Sequence record: PP430141.1
Length of the DNA stretch: 3,552 nt
Reading direction: 5' to 3' (one strand)
Source: Enterobacteria phage FrSaffron
Positions 1,325-3,552 of the stretch are shown piece by piece; the first letter of the stretch is position 1, and every line of letters starts with the position of its first letter. The translations under genes were made by a program, and so were the position numbers. The notes beneath the pieces are model-generated. The model searched no databases. It saw only the letters and a list, made by a program, of their open reading frames with translations, and was not told the DNA's origin.

Positions 1325-1347
1325 AGTTCGAAGCATGGCTTCTAACT
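1325..1347 (+). promoter_or_regulatory. Coat-gene initiator hairpin with the AUG in the apical loop
   Basis: Seen in sequence: AGTTCGAAGC (1325-1334) pairs with GCTTCTAACT (1338-1347) with one C/U mismatch (1329/1343). The loop is AUG (1335-1337), the coat start codon. This matches the known MS2 coat initiation hairpin. Confidence 0.7.
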
Positions 1348-1727
1348 TTACTCAGTTTGTTCTCGTCGACAATGGCGGAACTGGCGACGTGACTGTCGCA
1401 CCAAGCAACTTCGCTAACGGGGTCGCTGAATGGATCAGCTCTAACTCGCGCTCTCAGGCTTACAAAGTAACCTGTAGCGTTCGCCAGAGCTCTGCGCAGA
1501 ACCGCAAATACACCATCAAGGTCGAAGTGCCAAAAGTGGCTACCCAGACCGTTGGTGGTGTAGAGCTTCCTGTAGCCGCATGGCGTTCGTACTTAAATAT
1601 GGAATTAACTATTCCTATTTTCGCAACGAACGCCGACTGCGCGCTTATTGTTAAGGCGATGCAAGGTCTCCTGAAAGATGGAAACCCAATCCCCTCAGCA
1701 ATCGCAGCAAACTCCGGAATCTATTAA
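1335..1727 (+). CDS. cp: Major coat (capsid) protein, also the translational repressor of the replicase gene
   Basis: ATG at 1335 begins MASNFTQFVLVDNGGTGDVTVAPSNFANGVAEWISSNSRSQAYKVTC...SGIY (130 codons). It ends with tandem stops TAA (1725-1727) and TAG (1728-1730). Sequence is recognisably MS2-type coat. Confidence 0.95.
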   Translation: MASNFTQFVLVDNGGTGDVTVAPSNFANGVAEWISSNSRSQAYKVTCSVRQSSAQNRKYTIKVEVPKVATQTVGGVELPVAAWRSYLNMELTIPIFATNADCALIVKAMQGLLKDGNPIPSAIAANSGIY

Positions 1728-1905
1728 TAGATTCCGGCCATTCCAACATGAGGATTACCCATGTCGAAGACAACAAAGAAGTTCAACTCTTTATGTATTG
1801 ATCTTCCTCGCGATCTTTCTCTCGAAATTTACCAATCAATTGCTTCTGTCGCTACTGGAAGCGGTGATCCGCACAGTAGAGACTTTACAGCAATTGCTTA
1901 CCTAA
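1678..1905 (+). CDS. lys: Lysis protein L (single-gene lysis protein), overlapping the coat 3' end and replicase 5' end in the +1 frame
   Basis: 75-aa ORF METQSPQQSQQTPESINRFRPFQHEDYPCRRQQRSSTLYVLIFLAIFLSKFTNQLLLSLLEAVIRTVETLQQLLT. It has a polar, basic N-terminal half and a hydrophobic C-terminal segment (LYVLIFLAIFL...LLLSLL). Coordinates match the MS2 L gene as I recall it. Confidence 0.88.
   Translation: METQSPQQSQQTPESINRFRPFQHEDYPCRRQQRSSTLYVLIFLAIFLSKFTNQLLLSLLEAVIRTVETLQQLLT
1714..1737 (+). repeat. Perfect 24-nt palindrome / RNA hairpin spanning the coat stop codons (coat terminator hairpin)
   Basis: Seen in sequence: CCGGAATCTATTAATAGATTCCGG equals its own reverse complement. As RNA it is a 9-10 bp stem with the coat UAA (1725-1727) and UAG (1728-1730) in and next to the loop. 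Confidence 0.85.
1746..1764 (+). promoter_or_regulatory. Replicase translational operator (TR hairpin; coat-protein binding site and packaging signal)
   Basis: Exact ACATGAGGATTACCCATGT: stem 1746-1750/1760-1764, bulged A1751, pairs 1752-1753/1758-1759, loop AUUA 1754-1757. The replicase AUG (1761-1763) lies within the stem. Identical to the canonical MS2 operator. Confidence 0.92.
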
Positions 1906-3398
1906 GGGATGAGTTGCTTACTAAGCACCCGTCCTTAGGAAACGGTAATGACGAGGCGACCCGCCGGGCTCTAGCTATCGCTAAGCTCCGGGAGGCGAAT
2001 GAGCGTTGCGGCCAGATTAACAGAGAAGGTTTCTTACATGACAAATCCTTGTCATGGGATCCGGATGTTTTACAAACCAGCATCCGTAGCCTAATTGGCA
2101 ACCTTCTCTCTGGCTACCGCTCGTCGTTGTTTGGGCAATGCACGTTCTCCAACGGTGCCTCAATGGGGCACAAGTTGCAGGATGCAGCGCCTTACAAGAA
2201 GTTCGCTGAACAAGCAACCGTTACCCCCCGCGCTCTGAGAGCGGCGCTACTGGTCCGAGACCAGTGTGCGCCGTGGATCAGACACGCGGTCCACTACAAC
2301 GAGTCATATGAATTTAGACTCGTGGTAGGGAACGGAGTGTTCACAGTTCCGAAGAATAATAAAATAGATCGGGCTGCCTGTAAGGAGCCCGATATGAATA
2401 TGTACTTACAGAAGGGAGTCGGTACCTTTATAAGGCGCCGTCTCAAATCTGTGGGTATAGACCTGAATGATCAAACGATCAACCAGCGTCTAGCTCAAAA
2501 GGGTAGCGTAGATGGTTCGTTGGCGACGATAGACTTATCGTCAGCCTCCGACTCCATCTCCGACCGCCTGGTGTGGAGTTTCCTCCCACCTGAGCTATAT
2601 TCATATCTTGACCGCATCCGCTCTCACTACGGAATCGTAGATGGAGAGACGATACGGTGGGAACTATTTTCCACTATGGGTAACGGGTTCACTTTCGAGC
2701 TAGAGTCCATGATATTTTGGGCAATAGTGAAAGCGACCCAGATCCATTTTGGTAACGCCGGAACCATAGGCATCTACGGGGACGATATTATATGTCCCAG
2801 TGAGATTGCACCCCGTGTGCTAGAGGCACTTGCCTACTACGGTTTCAAACCGAATCTTCGTAAAACGTTCGTGTCAGGGCTCTTTCGCGAGAGCTGTGGC
2901 GCGCACTTTTACCGTGGTGTCGATGTCAAACCGTTTTACATCAAGAAACCAGTTGACAACCTCTTCTCCCTTATGCTGATCATGAATCGGCTTAGGGGTT
3001 GGGGAGTTGTCGGAGGTATGTCAGATCCGCGCCTTTATAAGGTTTGGGTACGACTGTCCTCCCTGGTTCCATCGATGTTCTTCGGTGGGACGGACCTTGC
3101 TGCCGACTACTATGTAGTCAGTCCCCCTAATGCGGTCTCAGTTTACACTAAGACTCCATACGGGAGACTACTCGCGGACGCCCGTACCTCGGGTTTCCGT
3201 CTTGCTCGTATCGCAAAAGAGCGTAAGCACTTTAGCGAGAAGCATGACAGTGGTCGCTACATAGCATGGTTCCATACTGGAGGTGAGATCACCGACAGTA
3301 TGAAGTCCGCTGGCGTACGCGTAATGCGTACTTCGGAGTGGCTGACGCCGGTTCCCACATTCCCTCAGGAATGCGGGCCAGCGAGCTCTCCTCGGTAG
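1761..3398 (+). CDS. rep: RNA-dependent RNA polymerase (replicase beta subunit)
   Basis: 545-aa ORF MSKTTKKFNSLCIDLP... ending with TAG at 3396-3398. The catalytic YGDD motif is encoded at 2775-2786 (IGIYGDDIICP). The start codon is embedded in the operator hairpin. Confidence 0.95.
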   Translation: MSKTTKKFNSLCIDLPRDLSLEIYQSIASVATGSGDPHSRDFTAIAYLRDELLTKHPSLGNGNDEATRRALAIAKLREANERCGQINREGFLHDKSLSWDPDVLQTSIRSLIGNLLSGYRSSLFGQCTFSNGASMGHKLQDAAPYKKFAEQATVTPRALRAALLVRDQCAPWIRHAVHYNESYEFRLVVGNGVFTVPKNNKIDRAACKEPDMNMYLQKGVGTFIRRRLKSVGIDLNDQTINQRLAQKGSVDGSLATIDLSSASDSISDRLVWSFLPPELYSYLDRIRSHYGIVDGETIRWELFSTMGNGFTFELESMIFWAIVKATQIHFGNAGTIGIYGDDIICPSEIAPRVLEALAYYGFKPNLRKTFVSGLFRESCGAHFYRGVDVKPFYIKKPVDNLFSLMLIMNRLRGWGVVGGMSDPRLYKVWVRLSSLVPSMFFGGTDLAADYYVVSPPNAVSVYTKTPYGRLLADARTSGFRLARIAKERKHFSEKHDSGRYIAWFHTGGEITDSMKSAGVRVMRTSEWLTPVPTFPQECGPASSPR

Positions 3399-3408
3399 CT
3401 GACCGAGG
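3390..3408 (+). other. Hairpin presenting the replicase stop codon in its loop
   Basis: Seen in sequence: CTCGG (3391-3395) pairs with CCGAG (3403-3407), plus C3390-G3408. The loop TAGCTGA (3396-3402) contains the replicase UAG. Confidence 0.55.
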
Positions 3409-3552
3409 GACCCCCGTAAACGGGGTGGGTGTGCTCGAAAGAGCACGGGTCCGCGAAAGCGGTGGCTCCACCGAAAGGTGGGCGGGCTTCGGCCCAGGGA
3501 CCTCCCCCTAAAGAGAGGACCCGGGATTCTCCCGATTTGGTAACTAGCTGCT
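3399..3552 (+). other. 3' untranslated region, truncated at the window end (lacks the extreme 3' terminus)
   Basis: No ORF; GC-rich and highly structured. It ends ...GGTAACTAGCTGCT, which is the 5' half of the terminal hairpin in MS2 as I recall it. Confidence 0.85.
3431..3495 (+). other. Array of four tetraloop-capped hairpins in the 3' UTR
   Basis: Seen in sequence: GTGCTC-GAAA-GAGCAC (3431-3446), CCGC-GAAA-GCGG (3451-3462), CCACC-GAAA-GGTGG (3468-3481), GGGC-UUCG-GCCC (3484-3495). A further hairpin CCCCG-UAAA-CGGGG lies at 3412-3425. Confidence 0.75.

What the first reader, a model, noticed from the sequence alone, without database searches (positions are those of the whole stretch)
1678..1905. 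Overlapping lysis gene with a variable N-terminus and conserved hydrophobic C-terminus
The L ORF is read in the +1 frame across the coat stop and the replicase start, so about 225 nt are constrained by two or three overlapping functions (coat/L, the operator, L/replicase). The polar N-terminal third appears to differ from MS2 at several positions as I recall it, while the hydrophobic C-terminal domain, including the LS dipeptide in LLLSLL, is retained. That matches the known dispensability of the N-terminal domain for lysis. L expression has no SD of its own and is expected to depend on coat termination.
Basis: partly seen in the sequence, partly recalled or inferred. Interest (0 to 1): 0.35.

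Follow-up and report, generated by a model that had tools for sequence, protein, structure and literature searches.

The report
MS2-type phage lysis gene L
This is the well-known overlapping lysis gene L of an MS2-like RNA phage (almost certainly the deposited isolate FrSaffron); it behaves as the textbook says, so it is ordinary, though it shows neatly how coat coding and RNA hairpins dictate the protein's variable N-terminus.

Summary
The ORF at 1678-1905 is real. It is the 75-codon L lysis gene of an MS2-like Emesvirus zinderi genome (Pfam PF11125, 131 bits). The exact protein is already deposited as the lysis protein of phage FrSaffron.

It differs from MS2 L at 7 residues. Six lie in the first 23 (R4Q, F5S, A14E, T16I, R19F, K23Q) and one is T68E. 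Residues 24-67 are identical.

Across 12 MS2-like genomes, replicase third codon positions vary at 2/48 sites inside the L overlap and 206/497 outside it (p=2.5e-8). The coat/L overlap shows no such suppression.

The N-terminal L changes appear to be passengers:
- All four inside coat are coat-synonymous.
- F5S, A14E and R19F sit on compensatory base pairs of the lysis hairpin and the coat-terminator hairpin.

- The family-conserved LS dipeptide is L48-S49 (FLSKF), not the LS in LLLSLL.
- L does have a weak ribosome-binding site (AAGGU, 1663-1667), masked in the lysis hairpin, so "no SD" is not supported.
- One substitution does fall in the C-terminal tail.

The only mildly new point is that the N-terminal net charge is +1, against +5 in MS2. 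Verdict: already known, low interest.

The parts
1678..1905 (+). L lysis gene, 75 codons plus TAA
   Evidence: ORF list. Pfam PF11125 131.2 bits over residues 22-75. Same coordinates as the annotated lys gene of MS2 and 14 other isolates. The exact protein is deposited as FrSaffron lysis protein WZB35604.1.
1335..1727 (+). Coat protein gene; its last 50 nt overlap L
   Evidence: Pfam PF01819 227 bits; annotation in relatives. The coat C-terminus is identical to MS2 across the overlap.
1761..3398 (+). Replicase beta subunit gene; its first 145 nt overlap L
   Evidence: Pfam PF03431 711.6 bits. Third-position polymorphism is 2/48 in the overlap against 206/497 outside.
1647..1702 (+). Lysis hairpin (LH), enclosing the L start codon (AUG 1678-1680; its G pairs with C1671) and the SD-like element
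   Evidence: The same predicted fold appears in the window (-16.2 kcal/mol) and in MS2 (-14.0). 97% of cells are paired across 12 distinct sequences, with compensatory changes at 3 pairs including 1658/1691. Named and assigned this role in the literature.
1663..1667 (+). SD-like AAGGU, 10 nt upstream of the L AUG, partly in the LH apical stem
   Evidence: Invariant in all 17 aligned genomes including fr. MS2 position 1664 is described as the first base of the L ribosome-binding site, and A1664G lowers reporter expression and gives tiny plaques.
1672..1674 (+). In-frame stop (UGA; UAA in MS2) immediately 5' of the L start
   Evidence: Read from the sequence; 1673 A>G is coat L112-synonymous.
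1714..1737 (+). Coat-terminator (CT) hairpin: a perfect 10-bp stem whose loop and 3' arm carry the tandem coat stops UAA UAG (1725-1730)
   Evidence: Folds at -13.7 kcal/mol against -11.5 in MS2. Pair 1718/1733 occurs as A-U, C-G, G-C and U-A among isolates, and 1719/1732 goes from an A.C mismatch to A-U. The CT structure is named.
1738..1743 (+). 3' strand of the long-range Min Jou interaction with 1426-1431 in the coat gene
   Evidence: Duplex prediction gives 6 bp at -7.8 kcal/mol here and 7 bp at -9.6 in MS2. The loss is due to 1744 A>C, which is L K23Q. The role of this interaction comes from the literature.
1746..1764 (+). Replicase translational operator / TR packaging hairpin, containing the replicase AUG (1761)
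   Evidence: Rfam RF02359 matches 1729-1764 at 60.6 bits, gathering score 40. The sequence ACAUGAGGAUUACCCAUGU is identical to MS2.
1789..1824 (+). L residues 38-49: the hydrophobic domain LYVLIFLAIFL followed by the conserved L48-S49 dipeptide (nt 1819-1824)
   Evidence: Kyte-Doolittle 19-residue maximum is 1.74 centred at residue 49. LS in LAIxLSxFT is conserved in MS2, fr and GA. There are no nucleotide differences from MS2 anywhere in 1745-1877.
1878..1880 (+). Three adjacent changes (GAC>AGA) giving L T68E and replicase D40R
   Evidence: E68 is shared by all 11 non-laboratory-lineage genomes, while replicase residue 40 is R or G.

Best explanation
The feature is the L single-gene lysis protein of an MS2-like levivirus (Emesvirus zinderi, almost certainly isolate FrSaffron).

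Expression (inferred by homology). The L start and its weak AAGGU ribosome-binding site are closed in the lysis hairpin. L is therefore translated only at a low rate, by ribosomes that have read the coat gene to its tandem stops 50 nt downstream and either keep the hairpin open or reinitiate.

Protein function (inferred by homology). L inserts in the membrane through residues about 38-60, with the LS motif at 48-49, and triggers autolysis.

Evolutionary behaviour (shown here). L residues 24-75 are under strong purifying selection, which suppresses otherwise-silent replicase third-position changes. Every replicase third position is an L second position. The first 23 residues impose no detectable constraint. 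Their sequence is set by coat-synonymous changes and by compensatory pairs in the lysis and coat-terminator hairpins.
For: Identity:
- The genome is 92.4% identical to MS2 and 94.9% to FrHenna, with the same four genes at the same coordinates.
- Pfam PF11125 scores 131 bits.
- The exact L and coat proteins are deposited for FrSaffron on a 3552-nt contig, the same length as the window.
- FrSaffron is a plaque-purified MS2-like phage.

Selection:
- Replicase third positions are polymorphic at 2/48 sites in the overlap against 206/497 outside, p=2.5e-8. Coat third positions are polymorphic at 8/16 against 51/113, p=0.79.
- There are no differences from MS2 in 1745-1877.
- L residues 24-60 are invariant in 10 distinct sequences.

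Passenger N-terminus:
- R4Q, F5S, A14E and T16I are all coat-synonymous third-position changes.
- Pair 1658/1691 changes from A-U to G-C, which gives F5S.
- Pair 1718/1733 is seen as four different Watson-Crick pairs, which gives the variation at residues 14 and 19.

Control elements:
- The lysis hairpin, coat-terminator hairpin and operator folds are conserved.
- The tandem stops UAAUAG are kept in all MS2-like genomes.

Literature: coupling to coat termination, an L ribosome-binding site at 1664 in the lysis hairpin, a dispensable N-terminal domain and DnaJ.
Against: Nothing contradicts it. Several steps are not shown for this sequence: no expression or lysis assay exists for this allele on its own, and the RNA structures are predictions supported by covariation in a small, closely related set (12 distinct rows).

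Part of the conservation at 1761-1780 must also reflect the operator and the replicase start rather than L.

The N-terminal domain is not entirely neutral, since K23E and R20W in MS2 are reported to reduce L expression.

The molecular target of L remains unknown in the literature.
Confidence: 0.93

Rival explanations
1. The strong conservation of 1761-1905 is caused by RNA structure and replicase N-terminal function (operator, replicase initiation, packaging contacts) rather than by the L reading frame.
For: The operator/TR hairpin and the replicase start lie at 1746-1764. The region is described in the literature as carrying several overlapping RNA functions. The replicase N-terminal 48 residues are themselves well conserved.
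Against: The suppression covers all 145 nt, far beyond the 19-nt operator. It is specific to replicase third positions (4% against 41% polymorphic), while replicase first positions, which are L third positions, vary more than elsewhere (7/48 against 43/496). That inversion is the signature of selection in the L frame. The conserved block ends where L ends: five replicase-synonymous changes occur in the 25 nt after 1905.
Confidence: 0.1
2. The N-terminal substitutions are adaptive. They lower the positive charge of domain 1 (net +1 against +5 in MS2) to change DnaJ dependence or lysis timing, rather than being passive by-products.
For: The net charge of residues 1-36 is +1 in the window and +5 in MS2, and full-length pI is 7.96 against 10.84. 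Environmental isolates range from +1 to +3. The cationic N-terminal domain confers DnaJ dependence in MS2. K23E and R20W affect L expression.
Against: The four changes inside coat are silent in coat, and such sites vary as often as non-overlapping coat third positions (50% against 45%). Three substitutions coincide with compensatory RNA pairs. Phage fr has a similarly low-charge N-terminus, and deletion of the whole domain leaves lysis intact.
Confidence: 0.15
3. The ORF is a chance alternative-frame ORF that is not expressed.
For: Other alternative-frame ORFs of 50-90 codons exist in the window.
Against: Pfam match with E=1.3e-38. The ORF is at the same position in every relative, shows frame-specific purifying selection, and the phage forms plaques.
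Confidence: 0.01

Closest known systems
MS2 L protein (YP_009640126.1; Pfam PF11125 Phage_MS2_lysis)
   Same: Same length (75 aa), same genome coordinates and +1 overlap, and 68/75 identical residues. Residues 24-67 are identical, including the hydrophobic domain and L48-S49. The lysis hairpin, tandem coat stops and operator are the same.
   Different: R4Q, F5S, A14E, T16I, R19F, K23Q and T68E. N-terminal net charge is +1 instead of +5. The coat-terminator hairpin is a perfect 10-bp stem (-13.7 against -11.5 kcal/mol). The Min Jou duplex is one pair shorter.
L of environmental MS2-like isolates FrHenna / FrBlood / DL16 / DL52 / DL54, J20 and Hu-Sh-YMS
   Same: Two residues different from each. 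All share S5, E14, F19 and E68, and all are annotated as lysis protein. The L proteins of J20, the FrHenna/FrBlood/DL16/DL52/DL54 group and Hu-Sh-YMS fall in the same 90% cluster as the window protein.
   Different: The combination Q4 + I16 with Q11 and Q71 is found only in the FrSaffron entry. Each single residue is seen in at least one other isolate.
Phage fr L (71 aa) and phage GA L (63 aa)
   Same: Same position across the coat/replicase junction, with a hydrophobic segment ending in LS followed by xFT (LAIFLSKFT / LAIVLSDFT). Translation is coupled to coat termination.
   Different: fr starts 12 nt further downstream at UUG (-38 spacing) and has LLASLL instead of LLLSLL. GA starts at the coat stop (UAAUG) and has an unrelated N-terminus and tail.

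Membership tests
MS2-type L lysis protein (Pfam PF11125) | Sequence match above the curated family threshold | tested here: met
   131.2 bits against a cut-off of 25, E=1.3e-38, residues 22-75 on profile positions 1-54/54.
MS2-type L lysis protein (Pfam PF11125) | Gene embedded in the +1 frame across the coat 3' end, the intergenic spacer and the replicase 5' end | tested here: met
   L 1678-1905 against coat 1335-1727 and replicase 1761-3398, with frames checked from the coordinates.
MS2-type L lysis protein (Pfam PF11125) | Causes lysis when expressed alone | not testable with these tools
   Indirect only: FrSaffron, which carries this exact L, was plaque-purified and titred on E. coli.
MS2-type L lysis protein (Pfam PF11125) | Dependence on the host chaperone DnaJ through the N-terminal domain | not testable with these tools
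   Known for MS2 L. Here the domain is present but much less basic.
L-like / type II single-gene lysis proteins (four-domain scheme) | Domain 1: positively charged N-terminus of variable length | tested here: inconclusive
   Residues 1-36 have 5 K/R and 4 D/E, net +1 (MS2: 8 and 3, net +5); pI of the segment is 8.0 against 11.3. Still slightly basic, but not 'highly cationic'.
L-like / type II single-gene lysis proteins (four-domain scheme) | Domains 2-3: a hydrophobic stretch followed directly by a conserved Leu-Ser dipeptide | tested here: met
   LYVLIFLAIFL-S at residues 38-49, identical to MS2. The LS aligns with fr and GA.
L-like / type II single-gene lysis proteins (four-domain scheme) | Domain 4: variable C-terminal tail | tested here: met
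   The only variable positions outside the N-terminus are 61, 68, 70 and 71.
Coat-termination-coupled L translation (lysis hairpin control) | Start codon and ribosome-binding site enclosed in a conserved hairpin, with coat stop codons about 50 nt downstream | tested here: met
   Hairpin 1647-1702 is predicted in both the window and MS2, with 97% of cells paired and compensatory changes at three pairs. UAAUAG lies at 1725-1730. Functional coupling itself was not tested.
Rfam RF02359 MS2 operator hairpin | Covariance-model match above the gathering score | tested here: met
   Window 1729-1764, 60.6 bits against 40.

The most novel reading that the evidence does not exclude
The near-neutral N-terminal domain of this L allele (net +1 against +5 in laboratory MS2) might weaken or abolish binding to DnaJ. 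If so, this lineage would lyse independently of DnaJ or with different timing. Because L-DnaJ complexes can activate the bNACHT25 defence nuclease, it might also be sensed differently by that system.
Probability: 0.12. Interest if true: 0.35.

Novelty: already known. Interest (0 to 1): 0.12.

Why it matters
It matters little as a discovery. The gene, its overlap, its control by the lysis hairpin and coat termination, and the dispensable N-terminus have been textbook since the 1980s, and this very protein is already deposited and annotated.

Its value is as a clean worked example. In one 228-nt stretch, the L frame overrides replicase synonymous sites in its essential half. In its dispensable part, the amino-acid sequence of L is written by coat-synonymous drift and RNA-helix covariation.

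The natural spread of N-terminal charge (+1 to +5) gives a ready-made allele series for testing what the DnaJ-binding domain does.

Tried and rejected
- The two primary papers on L genetics (Chamakura et al. 2017, Microbiology and J Bacteriol) could not be read by DOI or PMC id. The LS position was therefore settled from the MS2/fr/GA alignment and from secondary descriptions.
- A literature search for 'L48/S49' gave nothing relevant.
- Guessed accessions for FrSaffron (PP430141, PP430138) and for fr (NC_001333) are not in the phage collection.
- The exact-protein contig look-up for L found nothing. The replicase look-up gave an identical 1787-nt Logan contig.
- tblastn masked the Q-rich first 16 residues of L, so the comparisons were made by direct translation.
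- I considered that the coat/L overlap would be more conserved than the rest of coat and rejected it: 92.0% against 94.2% identity, p=0.53.
- I considered a chance ORF and rejected it.
- The minus-strand ORF 1651-1776 was ignored, because the genome is a plus-strand RNA phage and that ORF has no homology support.
- No structure prediction or large protein searches were run, since identity was already unambiguous.

Full report
**What the window is.** The 3552-nt window is a complete or near-complete genome of an MS2-like levivirus (Emesvirus zinderi).
- It aligns end to end with phage FrHenna (94.9%), MS2 isolates from the environment (about 94.5-94.8%) and the MS2 reference (92.4%).
- It has the four canonical genes at the MS2 coordinates: maturation 130-1311, coat 1335-1727, L 1678-1905 and replicase 1761-3398. 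All four products hit their Pfam families far above threshold.
- The exact L and coat protein sequences are deposited as WZB35604.1 and WZB35603.1 of Enterobacteria phage FrSaffron, from a contig of 3552 nt, the length of the window.
- A Logan assembly contig (SRR24145718) is identical over window 1709-3495.
- FrSaffron is described as an MS2-like phage that was plaque-purified and titred on E. coli.

**Checking the observation.**
- The frame arithmetic from the coordinates shows L is +1 relative to both coat and replicase. The overlaps are 50 nt with coat and 145 nt with replicase, and 33 nt are intergenic for the other two genes.
- Direct translation and comparison gives seven differences from MS2 L: R4Q, F5S, A14E, T16I, R19F, K23Q and T68E. 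Residues 24-67 are identical.
- Every one of these residues is also seen in at least one other cultured isolate. The nearest L sequences (FrHenna/DL16/DL52, J20, Hu-Sh-YMS) differ at two positions.
- Over ten distinct MS2-like L sequences, 10 of 23 N-terminal positions vary against 4 of 52 elsewhere (p=0.0006). No position in 24-60 varies.
- The Kyte-Doolittle 19-residue maximum is 1.74, centred on residue 49, and is the same in the window and MS2.

**How the overlap constrains the sequence.** Nucleotide identity to MS2 is 97.2% in the L/replicase overlap against 91.0% in the rest of replicase (Fisher p=0.007). The coat/L overlap (92.0%) is no better conserved than the rest of coat (94.2%, p=0.53).
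- From 1745 to 1877 there is not a single difference from MS2. In the 25 nt after the L stop there are five replicase-synonymous changes.
- The frame geometry explains this. The third position of a coat or replicase codon is the second position of an L codon, so every 'silent' change in the other gene changes an L residue.
- Among 12 MS2-like genomes, replicase third positions are polymorphic at 2/48 sites inside the overlap and 206/497 outside (p=2.5e-8). Replicase first positions, which are L third positions, are if anything more variable than elsewhere (7/48 against 43/496).
- Coat third positions are polymorphic at 8/16 inside the overlap and 51/113 outside (p=0.79).
- So the part of L encoded in the replicase overlap (residues 29-75) dominates selection over replicase silent sites. 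The 16 L codons that lie inside coat impose no detectable constraint on coat.

**Where the N-terminal substitutions come from.** R4Q, F5S, A14E and T16I are each a single coat-synonymous third-position change. R19F and K23Q lie in the spacer. Three of them are tied to RNA helices. Folding 1640-1770 gives the same three hairpins in the window and in MS2:
- the lysis hairpin, 1647-1702, which contains the L AUG;
- the coat-terminator hairpin, 1714-1737, which carries the tandem stops UAA UAG;
- the replicase operator, 1746-1764.

Counting pairs on the 17-genome alignment gives 96.7% of cells paired, against 30-48% for slid controls. Five pairs show changes on both sides.
- Pair 1658/1691 is A-U in the MS2/R17/M12 lineage and G-C in the window and its relatives. 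The 1691 half is L F5S, and the 1658 half is coat A107-synonymous.
- Pair 1718/1733 occurs as C-G (MS2, R17), A-U (window and most isolates), U-A (JP501) and G-C (GER_K20). These are L residue 14 = A/E/V/G coupled to residue 19 = R,C/F/Y/S.
- Pair 1719/1732 goes from an A.C mismatch in MS2 to A-U here, so the window's coat-terminator hairpin is a perfect 10-bp stem (-13.7 against -11.5 kcal/mol).
- K23Q (1744 A>C) removes the terminal pair of the long-range duplex between 1425-1431 and 1738-1744 (-9.6 to -7.8 kcal/mol). This corresponds to the Min Jou interaction named in the literature.

The same positions (1688, 1718, 1744) are known multi-function sites in MS2 experimental evolution. These structures are predictions backed by covariation in a small, closely related sample.

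**The C-terminal change.** T68E arises from three adjacent nucleotide changes (1878-1880, GAC>AGA) that also change replicase D40 to R.
- MS2, R17, M12 and fr have the T/D state.
- All 11 genomes outside that lineage (10 others plus the window) have E68 in L, while replicase residue 40 is R or, in one isolate, G.
- Residue 68 lies in the tail that the literature calls the highly variable domain 4. The isolates that carry E68 include cultured, plaque-forming phages, so the change is compatible with lysis.

1. The LS dipeptide. L has two LS dipeptides. The one conserved across MS2, fr and GA is L48-S49, in LAIFLSKFT (GA: LAIVLSDFT), at the end of the hydrophobic stretch. The LS in LLLSLL is AS in fr and has no counterpart in GA. 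Published descriptions define the motif as following the hydrophobic domain.
2. The Shine-Dalgarno site. An AAGGU at 1663-1667, 10 nt before the AUG, is invariant in all 17 genomes including fr. Meir et al. 2020 describe MS2 position 1664 as the first base of the L ribosome-binding site within the lysis hairpin, and show that A1664G lowers reporter expression and gives tiny plaques. A review likewise speaks of secondary structure around the ribosome-binding site of the lysis gene being relieved by the ribosome terminating on coat. The site is masked rather than absent.
3. Coupling to coat termination. Dependence on coat termination is well supported for MS2 and fr in the literature. All the sequence elements are conserved here, but it was not tested for this genome.

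**Mechanism, with what is shown and what is inferred.**

Shown here:
- gene identity and position;
- frame-specific purifying selection on residues 24-75;
- the passenger nature of the N-terminal substitutions;
- conservation and covariation of the three hairpins, and the operator match (Rfam RF02359, 60.6 bits).

Inferred from homology and literature:
- low-level translation of L by ribosomes that have terminated at the coat stops;
- membrane insertion and oligomerisation through the C-terminal domain;
- lysis without inhibition of net peptidoglycan synthesis;
- modulation by DnaJ through the N-terminal domain.

The cellular target of L is still unknown.

**The one mildly unusual point.** The N-terminal 36 residues carry a net charge of +1 here, against +5 in laboratory MS2. 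Full-length pI is 7.96 against 10.84. Environmental isolates range from +1 to +3, and fr is similarly low. The cationic N-terminus is the part that confers DnaJ dependence, and L-DnaJ can activate the bNACHT25 defence nuclease. This natural allele series could therefore be informative, but nothing here shows a functional difference.

**Verdict.** The feature is the known L gene in an already deposited phage: already known, and of low interest (0.12).

Noticed in passing
L003 (DL52) and L010 (DL54), replicase beyond the L stop: These two isolates are 100% identical to the window in the L/replicase overlap but only about 78% identical in the rest of replicase and the 3' UTR. That looks like recombinants whose breakpoint lies 3' of L.
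   Followed up: no
L009:1678-1680 (isolate GER_K20): The L gene of this isolate begins with GUG instead of AUG. It also carries G14/S19, which is the G-C version of the 1718/1733 pair.
   Followed up: partly
window 3536-3552 (3' end): The window stops at ...TAACTAGCTGCT, 17 nt short of the MS2 3' terminus (TGGCTAGTTACCACCCA is missing), so the 3' end is incomplete. A small indel difference from MS2 lies near 3451-3452 in the 3' UTR.
   Followed up: no
window 1672-1674: The in-frame stop just before the L AUG is UGA here and UAA in MS2 (1673 A>G, coat L112-synonymous). Among the 16 MS2-like genomes only A or G occurs at this four-fold degenerate coat site, and both keep a stop in the L frame.
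   Followed up: partly
window 1642: Coat residue 102 is Ala (GCG) here and in all environmental isolates, M12 and fr. It is Glu in laboratory MS2, R17 and ST4.
   Followed up: no
window 1744 with 1425: The change 1744 A>C (L K23Q) removes the terminal U-A pair of the long-range coat-to-spacer duplex, taking it from 7 to 6 bp (-9.6 to -7.8 kcal/mol). Ten of 17 genomes, including fr, carry C at this position.
   Followed up: partly
window 1878-1880: Three adjacent nucleotides differ from MS2 (GAC>AGA), reversing the charge of replicase residue 40 (D>R) and changing L T68E. One isolate has GGA (replicase G40, L E68), so L residue 68 is the constant one within the clade.
   Followed up: partly
phage collection: FrHenna and FrBlood are in the phage collection, but no record more than 94.9% identical to the window is. 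The FrSaffron genome was found only through its deposited proteins.
   Followed up: yes
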